From the sequence record MK373786.1: DNA of 64,000 nt; one strand, given 5' to 3'. This DNA comes from Escherichia phage vB_EcoM_R5505. Of this stretch, positions 544 to 60,728 are shown piece by piece. The translations under genes and the position numbers were made by a program. The notes beneath the pieces were generated by a model. It saw only the letters and a program-made list of their open reading frames with translations, was not told the origin of the DNA and did not search any database. The number at the start of each line of letters is the position of its first letter. The stretch's first letter is position 1.

Positions 544-2109
544 ATGACTATCAAAACTAAAGCTGAACTTTTGAACAAATGGAAGCCATTACTGGAAGGT
601 GAAGGTTTACCGGAAATTGCTAATAGCAAACAAGCGATTATCGCTAAAATCTTTGAAAACCAGGAAAAAGATTTCCAGACAGCTCCAGAATATAAAGACG
701 AAAAAATTGCTCAGGCATTTGGTTCTTTCTTAACAGAAGCTGAAATCGGTGGTGACCACGGTTACAATGCTACCAACATCGCTGCAGGTCAGACTTCTGG
801 CGCAGTAACTCAGATTGGCCCAGCTGTTATGGGTATGGTACGTCGTGCTATTCCTAACCTGATTGCTTTCGATATTTGTGGTGTTCAGCCGATGAACAGC
901 CCAACCGGTCAGGTATTCGCACTCCGCGCGGTATATGGTAAAGACCCAATCGCTGCCGATGCTAAAGAAGCATTCCACCCAATGTATGGTCCAGATGCAA
1001 TGTTCTCTGGTCAGGGTGCTGCTAAGAAATTCCCAGCTCTGGCTGCTAGCACACAAACCACAGTAGGTGATATCTATACTCACTTCTTCCAGGACACTGG
1101 TACTGTGTATCTGCAAGCTTCTGCTCAAGTAACAATCGATGCTGGTGCGACTGATGCTGCTAAATTAGATGCTGAAATTAAGAAACAAATGGAAGCTGGT
1201 GCACTGGTAGAAATCGCTGAAGGTATGGCTACTTCTATCGCTGAACTTCAGGAAGGTTTCAATGGTTCTACCGATAACCCATGGAATGAAATGGGCTTCC
1301 GTATCGATAAGCAAGTTATCGAAGCTAAATCTCGTCAGCTGAAAGCTGCTTACTCTATTGAATTAGCACAAGACCTCCGCGCTGTTCACGGTATGGATGC
1401 TGATGCTGAACTGTCTGGTATTCTGGCTACCGAAATCATGCTGGAAATCAACCGTGAAGTTGTTGATTGGATTAACTACTCCGCACAGGTTGGTAAATCT
1501 GGTATGACCCTGACTCCGGGTTCTAAAGCTGGCGTATTTGACTTCCAGGACCCAATCGATATTCGTGGTGCTCGCTGGGCAGGTGAATCCTTTAAAGCTC
1601 TGTTGTTCCAGATTGACAAAGAAGCAGTTGAAATTGCTCGTCAAACCGGTCGCGGCGAAGGTAACTTCATTATCGCTTCCCGTAACGTAGTTAACGTTCT
1701 GGCTTCAGTTGATACCGGCATTTCTTATGCTGCACAAGGTCTGGCTACCGGCTTTAACACTGATACTACCAAGTCAGTATTTGCTGGTGTTCTGGGTGGT
1801 AAATACCGTGTATATATCGACCAGTATGCTAAACAGGATTATTTCACTGTAGGTTATAAAGGTCCGAACGAAATGGATGCTGGTATTTACTATGCTCCAT
1901 ATGTAGCTCTGACTCCGCTGCGTGGTTCCGATCCGAAGAACTTCCAACCGGTAATGGGATTCAAAACTCGTTACGGTATCGGTATCAACCCATTTGCAGA
2001 ATCCGCTGCTCAGGCTCCGGCTTCTCGCATCCAGAGCGGTATGCCTTCTATTCTGAATAGCCTTGGTAAAAACGCTTACTTCCGCCGTGTATATGTTAAA
2101 GGTATCTAA
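544..2109 (+). CDS. 23: Major capsid protein gp23
   Basis: 521-aa ORF, N-terminus MTIKTKAELLNKWKPLLEGEG; length and position match T4 gp23; strong codon bias of a highly expressed gene. Confidence 0.97.
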   Translation: MTIKTKAELLNKWKPLLEGEGLPEIANSKQAIIAKIFENQEKDFQTAPEYKDEKIAQAFGSFLTEAEIGGDHGYNATNIAAGQTSGAVTQIGPAVMGMVRRAIPNLIAFDICGVQPMNSPTGQVFALRAVYGKDPIAADAKEAFHPMYGPDAMFSGQGAAKKFPALAASTQTTVGDIYTHFFQDTGTVYLQASAQVTIDAGATDAAKLDAEIKKQMEAGALVEIAEGMATSIAELQEGFNGSTDNPWNEMGFRIDKQVIEAKSRQLKAAYSIELAQDLRAVHGMDADAELSGILATEIMLEINREVVDWINYSAQVGKSGMTLTPGSKAGVFDFQDPIDIRGARWAGESFKALLFQIDKEAVEIARQTGRGEGNFIIASRNVVNVLASVDTGISYAAQGLATGFNTDTTKSVFAGVLGGKYRVYIDQYAKQDYFTVGYKGPNEMDAGIYYAPYVALTPLRGSDPKNFQPVMGFKTRYGIGINPFAESAAQAPASRIQSGMPSILNSLGKNAYFRRVYVKGI

Positions 2110-25481: not shown

Positions 25482-25497
25482 AGGGGCCGAAGCCCCT
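25482..25497. terminator. Hairpin aggggcc-gaag-cccct
   Basis: GC stem with GAAG loop between two minus-strand ORFs. Confidence 0.6.

Positions 25498-30061: not shown

Positions 30062-30062
<1 letters not shown>
29865..30062 (-). CDS. Hypothetical protein (cd.5 position)
   Basis: 65 aa from the internal ATG, which forms a TAATG overlap with the pseT stop; track ORF extends to 30092. Confidence 0.5.
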
Positions 30063-31274
<1,212 letters not shown>

Positions 31275-32709: not shown

Positions 32710-34297
<1,588 letters not shown>

Positions 34298-58194: not shown

Positions 58195-58344
58195 TTACTG
58201 CTCGAACGCGATAACTATCGTGATAACACGTTGAATTCCGAACGCAAGAAGACCTCCTGCTACGGCTGGAACAACGCCTAAACCCGCCAGTAAAATGCTA
58301 CCAGATACTAATGCAGCGCTTGTAATACCAATGAATGGACTCAT
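58195..58344 (-). CDS. Small hydrophobic protein (motA.1 position), not in ORF track
   Basis: 49-aa ORF MSPFIGITSAALVSGSILLAGLGVVPAVAGGLLAF...; ATGA overlap with the gene 52 stop. Confidence 0.5.
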   Translation of the reverse strand: MSPFIGITSAALVSGSILLAGLGVVPAVAGGLLAFGIQRVITIVIAFEQ

Positions 58345-59669
58345 TTGATTTCCTCTAAATCTTTGGTGTATTCGGTAACTACATCAGTAGTTTTCCAATA
58401 TTCGTTTTCTTCTTTTTTAGCTTTAGCTTCTTCAGCAAGTTTCTTCGCTTCATCGGAAGTCATATGAAAAATATTCATTCCAACTAGTTTATCAACATAA
58501 GAAGAATACATCTCAATTTTAGAAAGTTCTTCGGTCAGTTCTTTACGAGTTTTACCCTGTACAACAATTTCACCTGAAATTACTTTCTTAATGAAATGTG
58601 CCTTGGCAAAGGCTAAACGAAAAGCTGACTCAGTTTCTTTAATTTTGTTATCAATTCGTTTTTGGACATAAGTTTTACGAACTTCAACGAAATCTTTAAT
58701 TAAATCAACTACGTTATCGTAAACTTGTAGTTTTCCTTTCTCATTAATAACCGTAATATTCTGAGAACGACGCTCAATCAACCCGAAGTCTTTCATAATT
58801 TTTGCATGGCGTTCTTCTTCATTATCGCTCAAAGAATATTCTTTGCGGAATTTAACTTTGAATCCAAAACCGTGCTCACCGCAAGCATCATCCCATGTAA
58901 TGAAGCCTTTATCTTCAAGTGGGTCTAAGATTTTACTCACATAAGTTTCACGATCATACTTATATGGAATCTCAGTGATATGCATTTGAGTTCGTGAAGT
59001 AAACTTGTATGTTCCACGAATTTCATATTGCCCATCAATTTCAATGACTTCACCACGAAATTCTGGGAATTCTACCTTCGGTTTAGTTACTTTCTTTCCT
59101 TGAAGAGCTTGTAGTACAGCTTTCTTGACAGAAGAAACACTATGAGGAAGAATGTAAGTTGCATAACCAGTTGCAATACCGGAAACACCATTAAGAAGAA
59201 CAGTAGGAATAATAGGCAAATAAAAAGCAGGCGGAATGTGTTCTTTATCTTGATGTACCGGAGCATATTCAGTATCTTTATATACGTTATAGAAATTTTT
59301 ACTTACACGAGCAAAAATATAACGACTTGCTGCTGCTTTTTGAACGGTACGAGAACCGAAGTTTCCTTGACCATCTAACAAAGGAAAGTTATTATTCCAA
59401 GTATTAGCCATCAAAGCGCCTGCGTCTTGTGCAGAGTTTTCGCCATGGTGATATCCAAGGTCCGCTACACCACCTGCAATAGAAGCGAGTTTGTGAAACT
59501 TATCTTTATTTCCTCGTGCCAAATCAAGAGCTCGAGCAATAACAAATCGTTGAACTGGCTTAAATCCATCAATCATATTTGGGATAGCACGATTTTCAAC
59601 CGTGTACATAGCATAAGCCAATGCTTCATTATCAATGATACTTTTTAAATCGCGATTATTCAGTTGCAT
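58341..59669 (-). CDS. 52: DNA topoisomerase II medium subunit gp52
   Basis: 442-aa ORF, GyrA-like N-terminal domain with catalytic Tyr region. Confidence 0.95.
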   Translation of the reverse strand: MQLNNRDLKSIIDNEALAYAMYTVENRAIPNMIDGFKPVQRFVIARALDLARGNKDKFHKLASIAGGVADLGYHHGENSAQDAGALMANTWNNNFPLLDGQGNFGSRTVQKAAASRYIFARVSKNFYNVYKDTEYAPVHQDKEHIPPAFYLPIIPTVLLNGVSGIATGYATYILPHSVSSVKKAVLQALQGKKVTKPKVEFPEFRGEVIEIDGQYEIRGTYKFTSRTQMHITEIPYKYDRETYVSKILDPLEDKGFITWDDACGEHGFGFKVKFRKEYSLSDNEEERHAKIMKDFGLIERRSQNITVINEKGKLQVYDNVVDLIKDFVEVRKTYVQKRIDNKIKETESAFRLAFAKAHFIKKVISGEIVVQGKTRKELTEELSKIEMYSSYVDKLVGMNIFHMTSDEAKKLAEEAKAKKEENEYWKTTDVVTEYTKDLEEIK

Positions 59670-59673
59670 AAAT

Positions 59674-59814
59674 TTACCATACTAGTGAATGTAGTGCCAT
59701 AATAACATCAGAAATGAAAAGCACGACTTGAATTAATCCGAACATTATTCCGTAATATAACGCTATCAATAAAATAGCAAAGGCTAATGAATAGCCCAAG
59801 ATTTTCTTAATCAT
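59674..59814 (-). CDS. Small membrane peptide (52.1 position), not in ORF track
   Basis: 46-aa hydrophobic ORF MIKKILGYSLAFAILLIALYYGIMFGL... Confidence 0.45.
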   Translation of the reverse strand: MIKKILGYSLAFAILLIALYYGIMFGLIQVVLFISDVIMALHSLVW

Positions 59815-59962
59815 TAGATAACAACACAAATGTTAAATATGCACACATACCCTGGGCTAAAGCCTGCGAAAACACACTGCTGGCATCGATACAGATAGTT
59901 AAAACACATGCTACTATCCAACAAATAAATGAAATAACTCCTAATAATTTTGCGATATTCAT
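59807..59962 (-). CDS. ac: Ac-type 51-aa membrane protein (acriflavine sensitivity)
   Basis: 51 aa from MNIAKLLGVISFICWIVACVL... with GAGGAG Shine-Dalgarno; track ORF begins at an upstream TTG. Confidence 0.7.
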   Translation of the reverse strand: MNIAKLLGVISFICWIVACVLTICIDASSVFSQALAQGMCAYLTFVLLSND

Positions 59963-59972
59963 AATATTCTCC

Positions 59973-60128
59973 TCAACTATTTTTAGAACCAATGTACGCG
60001 AATAATGATAAAATCGCTAATACGCCCTGAGCTGATGCTTGCAAAAATACTGAAGTTTCTCCAGTTATTACTGTTCCGATGCATAAAAAGAACCAACAGA
60101 AAAAGGCTATACCGTGAACAAGTTTCAT
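59973..60128 (-). CDS. Ac-like paralog, 51-aa membrane protein, not in ORF track
   Basis: MKLVHGIAFFCWFFLCIGTVITGETSVFLQASAQG... shares the CW..C...SVF.QA.AQG pattern with the adjacent ac ORF. Confidence 0.5.
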   Translation of the reverse strand: MKLVHGIAFFCWFFLCIGTVITGETSVFLQASAQGVLAILSLFAYIGSKNS

Positions 60129-60135
60129 ATTTTCC

Positions 60136-60216
60136 TCACTGGCGTCCGAAGACGCCTTTAGTTTTAAGATTGTTACGATAGAACTGCATCACATGTTCGT
60201 TATGGAAATTACTCAT
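60136..60216 (-). CDS. stp: Stp peptide, activator of the host PrrC anticodon nuclease
   Basis: 26-aa [29 protein letters not shown] matches my memory of T4 Stp; TAATG overlap with the ndd stop; 3' end encodes the hairpin ggcgtc-cgaa-gacgcc. Confidence 0.85.
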
Positions 60217-60671
60217 TAATATGCCTGCAAAACAAATTTAAAGTTATCAGCCAACATACGGTTCATTTCTTCAAGTGTTTGATACTCAGAATGATGATTA
60301 CGAGTAAACGCCAAAGCTAACTGACCTTTACCAAATCCCGTCGTCAGAGGTTTCATCTTAGAAGCAGGCAGATAAAATACTGTGTATGGAACATTGTTAT
60401 TTGCAATAGTACGCGCAAGCTGAGACCGACGCTGACGAATATGACTTAGAACTGCACTGAATCCTTGCTTAGAACGCTGATTACCTACATAAAATCGTGC
60501 AGACACACATGGATTACTAAATGGACGACCATCTAATTTACTTACTAAAAAGTAAAATCCAGGTTTAGACAAAATGTCTTTGTGCGGAGTTCCCAAAAAC
60601 CATTCACCGCCCTTGATTGTACCAATAACAGTTGCGCCTGCATTGTTCAGATCAGTAACAGTCATGTATTT
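60216..60671 (-). CDS. ndd: Ndd nucleoid disruption protein
   Basis: 151 aa from [18 protein letters not shown] (GAGGAAA Shine-Dalgarno); track ORF extended to an upstream start. Confidence 0.92.
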
Positions 60672-60706
60672 CATATTAATTTCCTCTAAATTATTTTCTA
60701 CTCCAA

Positions 60707-60728
60707 GGCCGCATGAATACACGCGGCC
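60707..60728. terminator. Hairpin ggccgc-atgaatacac-gcggcc upstream of ndd
   Basis: 6-bp GC stem. Confidence 0.5.

What the first reader, a model, noticed from the sequence alone, without database searches (positions are those of the whole stretch)
60136..60216. Unannotated stp peptide, alongside the tRNA-repair genes pseT and rnlA
A 26-aa ORF ([26 protein letters not shown]) overlaps the ndd stop by one nucleotide (TAATG) and ends inside a GC hairpin. It matches the Stp peptide that triggers the host PrrC anticodon nuclease. The two enzymes that repair the resulting tRNA break, polynucleotide kinase (pseT, 30062-30967) and RNA ligase 1 (rnlA, 32710-33834), are in the same window, so the whole trigger-and-repair circuit is encoded here.
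Basis: partly seen in the sequence, partly recalled or inferred. Interest (0 to 1): 0.45.

Follow-up and report, generated by a model that had tools for sequence, protein, structure and literature searches.

The report
Phage T4 stp gene, already known

Summary
The minus strand at 60136..60216 holds a 26-codon [29 protein letters not shown]. It is 26/26 identical to T4 Stp (NP_049878.1) and sits in the T4 position, between ndd and ac. Its ATG overlaps the ndd stop (TAATG), and its last six codons form a GGCGUC-UUCG-GACGCC hairpin. It matches Pfam PF08133 (anticodon nuclease activator) at 75.3 bits against a cut-off of 25. A siphovirus allele differs at 8 bases in the first 18 codons, all synonymous, so the coding is real. 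pseT (30062..30967) and rnlA (32710..33834) are full-length T4 polynucleotide kinase-phosphatase and RNA ligase 1.

The window is a Tequatrovirus about 98% identical to its nearest public relatives. The mechanism comes from the literature. Stp inhibits the type Ic restriction enzyme EcoprrI, which unmasks the PrrC tRNA-Lys anticodon nuclease. Pnkp and Rnl1 then repair the tRNA.

- Three caveats apply:
  - The nuclease and its restriction partner are host genes.
  - The repair genes lie 26-30 kb from stp.
  - T4's reference record does annotate stp.
- Most related records do omit it: only 4-12 of the 59 annotated records sampled carry a CDS there.

Novelty: already known. Interest is low.

The parts
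60136..60216 (-). stp coding sequence, 26 codons plus a TGA stop. It encodes [26 protein letters not shown].
   Evidence: ORF list and translation. The peptide is 26/26 identical to T4 NP_049878.1. It matches Pfam PF08133 at 75.3 bits against a cut-off of 25, and PHROG 6763.
60214..60218 (-). TAATG junction, where the ndd stop codon TAA and the stp start codon ATG share one A. This arrangement suggests translational coupling, which is an inference.
   Evidence: Read directly. The same junction is present in T4, Bas41, T2, T6 and RB68.
60216..60674 (-). ndd (nucleoid disruption protein), 152 aa, the upstream neighbour of stp. The mechanical ORF list starts it at a GTG at 60722, but the family alignment supports the ATG at 60674.
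   Evidence: Pfam PF06591 at 317.8 bits, residues 1-152 against profile positions 1-154 of 154. PHROG 1102.
60141..60156 (-). C(UUCG)G tetraloop hairpin GGCGUC-UUCG-GACGCC lying within stp codons 21-26. It is followed at once by the stop codon and by the GAGG ribosome-binding site (60134..60137) of the next gene.
   Evidence: Folds at -11.5 kcal/mol, z = -3.14. It is one of 13 CTTCGG sites with stems of at least 4 bp in the window. The stem is kept in T4, RB68 and VR7, weakened in Bas41, and absent in T2, T6 and K1ind2.
59973..60128 (-). First ac-family small membrane ORF (51 aa), the downstream neighbour of stp. T4 itself lacks it.
   Evidence: PHROG 2501, E = 6e-26. The alignment with T4 shows that T4 lacks this copy.
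59807..59962 (-). Second ac-family ORF (51 aa), the orthologue of T4 ac (acridine resistance).
   Evidence: PHROG 2501, E = 2.2e-25. It aligns to the T4 ac region.
30062..30967 (-). pseT, polynucleotide 5'-kinase/3'-phosphatase (Pnkp), 301 aa. The P-loop GSGKS (K15) and the DVDGT motif (D165, D167) are present.
   Evidence: PDB 1LTQ, full length, E = 1.8e-208. Pfam HAD_PNKP plus AAA_33. Motifs were read, and the residue roles come from established knowledge of T4 Pnkp.
32710..33834 (-). rnlA (gene 63), RNA ligase 1, 374 aa. The adenylylation lysine K99 (TKEDG) is present.
   Evidence: PDB 2C5U, E = 1.5e-253. NCBIfam TIGR02308 equivalog at 632 bits against a cut-off of 242. Pfam RNA_lig_T4_1 plus T4_Rnl1_C.

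Best explanation
This is the stp gene of a T4-like phage (genus Tequatrovirus). It is translated from the polycistronic early/delayed-early message that also carries ndd, probably by ribosomes re-initiating at the TAATG overlap (inferred). The 26-residue peptide binds the host type Ic restriction-modification complex EcoprrI through its N-terminal 18 residues and blocks DNA restriction. In hosts that carry prrC embedded in that locus, this inhibition releases the latent PrrC anticodon nuclease, in a step that needs GTP hydrolysis and dTTP. PrrC then cuts tRNA-Lys 5' of the wobble base, leaving 2',3'-cyclic phosphate and 5'-OH ends. The phage's Pnkp (pseT) heals those ends and Rnl1 (rnlA) seals them, so wild-type phage survives. 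Mutants in pseT or rnlA die unless stp is also mutated. Shown here: sequence identity, family membership, synteny, protein-level selection, and the presence of intact repair genes. Taken from the literature and inferred for this phage: every biochemical step. The hairpin in the last six codons is one of the C(UUCG)G hairpins typical of T4 messages. It most likely acts as a stable RNA structure at a cistron boundary, as a 3' decay barrier or a separator before the next ribosome-binding site. That role is inferred, not shown.
For: - **Identity and synteny.** The peptide is 26/26 identical to T4 Stp, and the stp DNA differs from T4 at a single synonymous base. The gene order ndd-stp-ac-52.1-52 is that of the T4 reference, where stp is annotated with this function.
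- **Family membership.** Pfam PF08133 'Anticodon nuclease activator family' matches at 75.3 bits against a cut-off of 25, end to end. PHROG 6763 gives E = 4.4e-21.
- **Spread.** tblastn finds the peptide at 99% identity or more in 422 phage records.
- **Protein-level constraint.** The K1ind2 allele has 8 base changes in codons 1-18, all synonymous. Across 12 alleles the core HNEH[VI]MQ[FWL][YH]R is kept.
- **Repair genes.** They are confirmed.
- **Mechanism.** It is described in PMC3014915, PMC1484252 (abstract) and PMC12707154.
Against: - Nothing in the sequence speaks against the explanation.
- The limits are these:
  - Translation of the ORF in this phage was not observed.
  - The upstream Shine-Dalgarno match is weak (CAGG, 7 nt before the ATG).
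  - The molecular way in which Stp inhibits EcoprrI is still described as unknown in a 2025 review.
  - No solved structure contains the peptide.
- T-even DNA is glucosyl-hydroxymethylated and is generally held to be immune to type I restriction (own knowledge). The benefit that keeps stp conserved in these phages is therefore not explained by the standard model.
Confidence: 0.95

Rival explanations
1. The ORF is a chance reading frame. What is conserved is an RNA or DNA element, the hairpin plus the ribosome-binding region of the next gene, and not a peptide.
For: ORFs of this length are abundant by chance: 38 of at least 20 aa overlap 2.5 kb. The 3' end carries a stable hairpin, which one public record checked annotates as a terminator while calling no CDS there (three more sampled records list a 'terminator' under the match).
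Against: All 8 base differences in codons 1-18 between the window and the siphovirus K1ind2 are synonymous. The peptide core is kept in Drexlerviridae alleles whose DNA differs at 15-18 of 54 bases. The hairpin is missing from the T2, T6 and K1ind2 alleles while the N-terminal peptide is intact. Published genetics map suppressor missense mutations to residues 4-14, and plasmid-expressed Stp is sufficient for activity.
Confidence: 0.01
2. Stp is kept in T-even phages for a target other than EcoprrI/PrrC, such as another host defence or enzyme. The PrrC story would then be a rare side effect seen only in a few hospital strains.
For: The N-terminal 18 residues are nearly invariant across hundreds of Tequatrovirus genomes and recur in Kagunavirus, Rtpvirus, Tlsvirus and other siphoviruses. 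T-even DNA is already protected against type I enzymes by its modification (own knowledge). The inhibitory mechanism is still called unknown.
Against: No data point to a second target. Inhibition of two type Ic enzymes, EcoprrI and EcoR124I, but not type Ia enzymes, is documented. In siphoviruses with ordinary DNA, plain anti-restriction is a sufficient reason to keep the gene.
Confidence: 0.15
3. The hairpin at the end of stp is a transcription terminator, for the early-gene strand or for antisense read-through from the late genes. On this view the position of the stp stop codon inside it is incidental.
For: The consensus scan calls it terminator-like on the + (antisense) strand: GGCGTCCGAAGACGCC followed by TTTAGTTTTA. 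ARNold-based annotation in phage D5505 marks a terminator here.
Against: On the coding strand the stem is followed by AGUGAGGAAAAUAUG, with no U run, and the next gene starts 13 nt after the stem. The scan found 4 terminator-like sites against 1.9 +/- 1.5 expected, which is not significant. The T2 and T6 alleles lack the hairpin altogether.
Confidence: 0.2

Closest known systems
Bacteriophage T4 Stp (gene stp, NP_049878.1; Pfam PF08133 Nuclease_act)
   Same: The 26-residue sequence is identical. The position between ndd and ac, the TAATG overlap with ndd, and the terminal C(UUCG)G hairpin are all the same.
   Different: There is one synonymous base change (His8 CAT versus CAC). The downstream neighbour is an extra ac-family ORF that T4 lacks.
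T2/T6-type Stp alleles (27-28 aa, tail ...KNFGILGFKNS)
   Same: The first 18 residues are identical, and so is the position after ndd.
   Different: The C-terminal tail is different and has no hairpin. Its last codons, stop and ribosome-binding site match the 3' end of the window's first ac-like ORF. This suggests a deletion that fused the two genes.
Stp-like peptides of siphoviruses (Rtp rtp6, U136B_009, K1ind2, P818, STGO-35-1)
   Same: They share the core motif and all pass the Pfam PF08133 cut-off, at 35-67 bits.
   Different: They occur in unrelated genome backgrounds (Drexlerviridae, Kagunavirus and others) and have diverged tails without the hairpin. In Rtp and U136B, a protein that matches only the phosphatase (HAD) domain of Pnkp lies within about 0.5-1 kb. 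No kinase domain was detected in it.
Other phage anti-restriction proteins that act on type I enzymes (T7 Ocr, ArdA/ArdB)
   Same: They have the same functional class, inhibiting restriction by type I systems.
   Different: Stp is a 26-residue peptide specific to type Ic enzymes. It shows no sequence relation to those proteins and has no known structure, and its mode of inhibition is unknown.

Membership tests
Stp / anticodon nuclease activator (Pfam PF08133, PHROG 6763) | Sequence match to the family profile above the curated threshold, over the whole 26-residue length | tested here: met
   PF08133 at 75.3 bits against a cut-off of 25, residues 1-26 against profile 1-26 of 26, E = 2e-21. PHROG 6763, E = 4.4e-21. 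26/26 identity to T4 Stp.
Stp / anticodon nuclease activator (Pfam PF08133, PHROG 6763) | Intact N-terminal 18 residues. This is the functional part, and suppressor mutations cluster at residues 4-14. | tested here: met
   Residues 1-18 are identical to T4, T2 and T6. Their functional importance is taken from PMC3014915.
Stp / anticodon nuclease activator (Pfam PF08133, PHROG 6763) | T-even genomic position: directly after ndd, before ac and gene 52, on the early-gene strand | tested here: met
   The order ndd (60216..60674), stp, ac-family ORFs and gene 52 (58341..59669), all on the minus strand, matches the T4 reference.
Stp / anticodon nuclease activator (Pfam PF08133, PHROG 6763) | Evidence that the frame is under selection as a protein | tested here: met
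   8 of 8 base changes against K1ind2 in codons 1-18 are synonymous. In the more distant alleles, 5-9 codon changes are synonymous against 4-6 non-synonymous.
Stp / anticodon nuclease activator (Pfam PF08133, PHROG 6763) | Inhibits type Ic restriction (EcoprrI, EcoR124I) and activates PrrC cleavage of tRNA-Lys | not testable with these tools
   This is a biochemical and genetic property. It is inferred from the identical sequence and the literature.
Stp / anticodon nuclease activator (Pfam PF08133, PHROG 6763) | The peptide is actually made during infection (delayed-early expression) | not testable with these tools
   No expression data are available here. Delayed-early expression is stated for T4 in PMC3014915.
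T4 Pnkp (pseT) | Two-domain kinase plus HAD-phosphatase protein with the P-loop lysine and the DxDxT nucleophile | tested here: met
   Full-length match to 1LTQ. Pfam AAA_33 at residues 5-148 and HAD_PNKP at residues 159-301. GSGKS with K15, and D165-V-D167-G-T, were read.
T4 RNA ligase 1 (rnlA, gene 63) | Rnl1 nucleotidyltransferase domain with the KxDG lysine, plus the Rnl1-specific C-terminal tRNA-binding domain | tested here: met
   TIGR02308 equivalog at 632 bits against a cut-off of 242. Pfam RNA_lig_T4_1 and T4_Rnl1_C. 2C5U, E = 1.5e-253. K99 in TKEDG was read.
T4-type C(UUCG)G mRNA hairpins | CUUCGG closed by a G+C-rich stem, on the mRNA strand, at a cistron boundary | tested here: met
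   A 6-bp stem at -11.5 kcal/mol on the coding strand, ending 5 nt before the end of the stop codon. CTTCGG occurs 31 times against 14.05 +/- 3.16 expected, and 13 of those sites are stemmed. The class is described in PMC4371310. Its function was not tested.

The most novel reading that the evidence does not exclude
Two readings remain open. First, Stp may have a selected role beyond the rare prr system. Its N-terminal 18 residues are almost frozen in hundreds of T-even phages whose modified DNA should not need protection from type I enzymes. The same core also recurs in unrelated siphoviruses, twice next to a phosphatase-only fragment of Pnkp. Second, in the T4-type allele the functionally dispensable C-terminal codons may be constrained twice, once as peptide and once as a C(UUCG)G hairpin that shapes the fate of the ndd-stp message or the translation of the next gene.
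Probability: 0.15. Interest if true: 0.4.

Novelty: already known. Interest (0 to 1): 0.08.

Why it matters
As biology this is a classic system. Stp, PrrC, Pnkp and Rnl1 form the founding example of a host defence that senses a phage anti-defence protein, and of phage-encoded tRNA repair. Finding it in one more T4-like genome adds nothing new.

The practical point is about annotation. At 81 nt, stp lies below the usual minimum gene length of about 90 nt used by common gene callers such as Prodigal (own knowledge). Consistent with that, only 4-12 of the 59 annotated related records sampled carry a CDS there. Studies that list the anti-defence genes of T-even phages from GenBank annotation will therefore systematically miss it.

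How the peptide inhibits type Ic enzymes at the molecular level also remains an open question.

Tried and rejected
- **Rfam.** A scan of the whole window at gathering thresholds gave no hits, so the hairpin belongs to no curated RNA family.
- **tRNA scan.** There are no tRNA genes in the window, so no phage tRNA-Lys is involved here.
- **Larger RNA structure.** Folding 141 nt around stp gave z = -0.6, so there is none; only the local hairpin stands out.
- **MotA-box middle promoter.** The pattern TGCTT-N12-15-TANNNT gave 28 matches against 21 +/- 4.7 expected, which is not enriched, and none lies directly upstream of stp. The sigma-70 scan was likewise at background, 16 against 14. No dedicated stp promoter was found, so co-transcription with ndd is assumed.
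- **NCBIfam.** It has no model for Stp.
- **PDB.** No chain resembles the peptide, even at E = 10.
- **Literature.** Searches for a recent structure or mechanism of Stp bound to EcoprrI found only reviews that still call the mechanism unknown. A hit list entry with 13 'stp' word starts (PMC6070864) contained no mention of Stp as a whole word.
- **Source record.** Exact identification failed. The best matches are about 98% identical over 93-94% of a 25-kb query.
- **Searches not run.** I left out the large protein-database searches, because identity to a curated family already settled the question.

Full report
**What is in the sequence.** The minus strand at 60136..60216 carries an ATG-initiated ORF of 26 codons plus a TGA stop. 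Reading on the reverse strand, the upstream gene ends ...CAG GCA TAT TAA and the stp ATG begins on the last A of that stop. The TAATG overlap is therefore real (plus-strand positions 60214..60218). Codons 21-26 (GGC GTC TTC GGA CGC CAG) contain the inverted repeat GGCGTC / GACGCC around TTCG, at 60156..60141. As RNA this folds into a 6-bp stem with a UUCG loop closed by C-G. Its energy is -11.5 kcal/mol, with z = -3.1 against dinucleotide shuffles. The stem ends 2 nt before the stop codon. The stop overlaps a GAGG ribosome-binding site, and the next ATG is at 60128. An ORF of this size is not significant in itself, because 38 ORFs of at least 20 aa overlap the surrounding 2.5 kb. The case rests on homology.

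**Identity.**
- The T4 reference genome annotates stp at 165505..165585, between ndd and ac. Its product is 'activator of host PrrC lysyl-tRNA endonuclease'.
- The T4 translation is identical to the window's peptide at 26 of 26 residues. The DNA differs at one synonymous base.
- The peptide matches Pfam PF08133 (Anticodon nuclease activator family) end to end, at 75.3 bits against a curated cut-off of 25. It also matches PHROG 6763 with E = 4.4e-21.
- The upstream neighbour is Ndd (PF06591, 317.8 bits), starting at the ATG at 60674.
- The two downstream 51-aa ORFs belong to the ac family (PHROG 2501), and gene 52 topoisomerase follows.
- The window is a Tequatrovirus. The stp region is 98.1% identical to its best match, and a 25-kb query is about 98% identical over 93-94% of its length to phages such as teqdroes. 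No record is identical.

**Is the ORF really coding?** Yes. tblastn finds the peptide in 817 phage records, 422 of them at 99% identity or more. I extracted twelve alleles.
- In the Kagunavirus K1ind2, a siphovirus unrelated to T4, the first 18 codons differ from the window at 8 bases. All 8 changes are synonymous.
- In the Drexlerviridae alleles (Rtp, U136B, P818) and in STGO-35-1, 15-18 of 54 bases differ, yet the core HNEH[V/I]MQ[F/W/L][Y/H]R is kept. All of these alleles pass the Pfam threshold.
- This is protein-level purifying selection. It fits the published finding that the N-terminal 18 residues carry the activity, that suppressor mutations cluster at residues 4-14, and that deleting 8 C-terminal codons only moderately reduces activity (PMC3014915).

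**The repair genes.**
- The 301-aa product of 30062..30967 matches T4 polynucleotide kinase-phosphatase residue for residue (1LTQ, 1-301 to 1-301, E = 1.8e-208). It has the kinase and HAD-phosphatase domains. The P-loop lysine (K15) and the D165-x-D167 motif can be read.
- The 374-aa product of 32710..33834 matches T4 RNA ligase 1 (2C5U, E = 1.5e-253). It hits the TIGR02308 equivalog at 632 bits against a cut-off of 242. It keeps K99 in TKEDG and has the Rnl1-specific C-terminal domain.
- The roles assigned to these residues come from my own knowledge of the T4 enzymes.
- Both genes are on the same strand as stp but lie 26-30 kb away. 'Alongside' is therefore true only in the sense of sharing the same 64-kb window.

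**How it works (from the literature, inferred for this phage).**
- It relieves restriction by the type Ic enzymes EcoprrI and EcoR124I, but not by type Ia enzymes. Its target is therefore the restriction complex rather than PrrC itself.
- PrrC is held latent by its association with EcoprrI. Activation needs Stp, GTP hydrolysis and DNA with unmodified sites, with dTTP as a co-activator.
- The cut lies 5' of the wobble base. Pnkp heals the ends and Rnl1 seals them.
- All three phage genes are delayed-early (PMC3014915).
[quoted passage not shown] No PDB chain resembles the peptide.
The refinements are that only the phage half of the circuit is in the window, and that triggering PrrC is the host's response to an anti-restriction peptide.

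**The hairpin.**
- CTTCGG occurs 31 times in the window against 14.05 +/- 3.16 expected, and no shuffle reached 31.
- Thirteen of those 31 sites are flanked by stems of at least 4 bp. For eleven permuted control hexamers the figure is 0-3.
- This is the class of 'extraordinarily stable' C(UUCG)G hairpins first found in T4 mRNA (PMC4371310). The stp hairpin is one member. It is unusual only in lying inside a coding sequence.
- At least two other stemmed sites, at 25487 and 63042, are likewise followed within a few bases by a ribosome-binding site.
- Among alleles, the stem is intact in T4, RB68 and VR7 (where the loop is UUUG). One mismatch weakens it in Bas41 (-6.4 kcal/mol, z = -0.5). It is absent from the T2, T6 and K1ind2 alleles.
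- K1ind2 and Rtp keep the amino acids GVFG with other codons and no stem. The tail sequence is therefore not simply dictated by the RNA.
- On the coding strand there is no U run after the stem. On the opposite strand the scan calls the site terminator-like, and at least one public record marks a terminator here. That scan is not above background (4 against 1.9 +/- 1.5).
- I regard a role as a stable structure at a cistron boundary as most likely, but this remains untested.

**'Unannotated'.** No annotation came with the window, so the claim cannot be checked directly. I took an even sample of 60 records matching the 81-bp gene, of which 59 carry annotation. Four of them list a CDS besides ndd under the match. 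Eight more list a single 'hypothetical protein' that could be either gene. The rest list only ndd, or nothing. T4 and the RB-series records do annotate stp. The gene is thus known, but most pipelines drop it. The probable reason is that 81 nt is below the usual minimum gene length, which I state from my own knowledge of gene callers.

**Verdict.** The feature is a textbook gene that belongs to a curated Pfam family. Novelty is 'already known' and interest is low. The side observations are listed separately: the duplicated ac-family ORF, the fused tail of the T2/T6 alleles, the Stp homologues next to phosphatase-only Pnkp fragments in siphoviruses, and the enrichment of CUUCGG hairpins.

Noticed in passing
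window 59973..60128 (-) and 59807..59962 (-): Two tandem 51-aa ORFs of the ac (acridine resistance) family, PHROG 2501, follow stp. T4 has only the second. In T4 the ribosome-binding site that follows stp is joined directly to the second copy's coding sequence, as if the first copy had been deleted precisely.
   Followed up: partly
L003 (T2) 601..684, L004 (T6) 601..687, L006 (TOPO13) 601..687, compared with window 59973..59995: The T2/T6-type Stp alleles have a different C-terminal tail (...KNFGILGFKNS). Their last codons, stop and ribosome-binding site (AAAAATAGTTGAGGAGAA) match the 3' end of the window's first ac-like ORF. This looks like a deletion that fused stp at about codon 19 to the tail of that ORF. 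These alleles lack the hairpin.
   Followed up: partly
whole window, e.g. 2130, 5074, 8476, 19400, 21570, 25487, 26367, 50084, 54094, 62813, 63042: CTTCGG occurs 31 times against about 14 expected. Thirteen copies sit in stems of 4-10 bp, mostly of the form AAGGGGC-TTCG-GCCCCTT, and lie between genes. Some are followed by T runs and others by a ribosome-binding site. This is the known T4 C(UUCG)G hairpin class.
   Followed up: partly
L008 1501..1578 (K1ind2), L009 1483..1575 (Rtp), L010 1501..1581 (U136B), L011 1501..1578 (P818), L012 1501..1581 (STGO-35-1): Stp-family peptides that pass the Pfam threshold occur in siphoviruses unrelated to T4 (Kagunavirus, Drexlerviridae, Caminolopintovirus). 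The K1ind2 and P818 copies are not annotated.
   Followed up: partly
L009 495..1034 (rtp4) and L010 2151..2714 (U136B_012): In Rtp and U136B, a gene annotated 'polynucleotide kinase' lies within about 0.5-1 kb of the stp homologue. It matches only the HAD phosphatase domain of Pnkp (179-187 aa), with no kinase domain hit. I did not check whether these phages have any RNA ligase.
   Followed up: partly
window 60141..60156, + strand: The stp hairpin also reads as a terminator-like site on the opposite strand: GGCGTCCGAAGACGCC followed by TTTAGTTTTA. It could stop antisense read-through from the late genes. This was not tested.
   Followed up: no
window 33861..33886 (-) and 59699..59723 (-): MotA-box-like sequences (TGCTT ... 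TAnnnT) lie just upstream of rnlA and of gene 52. They may be middle promoters, but the pattern as a whole is not enriched in the window.
   Followed up: no
public records OP870145, OL964735, OQ223305, OL631483, OK272484, OP856590 (hits): Several GenBank records list 'naphthalene 1,2-dioxygenase' under the match, where other records name ndd (nucleoid disruption protein). This is probably a name propagated from the shared gene symbol ndd.
   Followed up: no
window 60216..60722 (-): The mechanical ORF for ndd starts at a GTG and gives 168 aa. The family alignment shows the real start is the ATG at 60674, giving 152 aa.
   Followed up: yes
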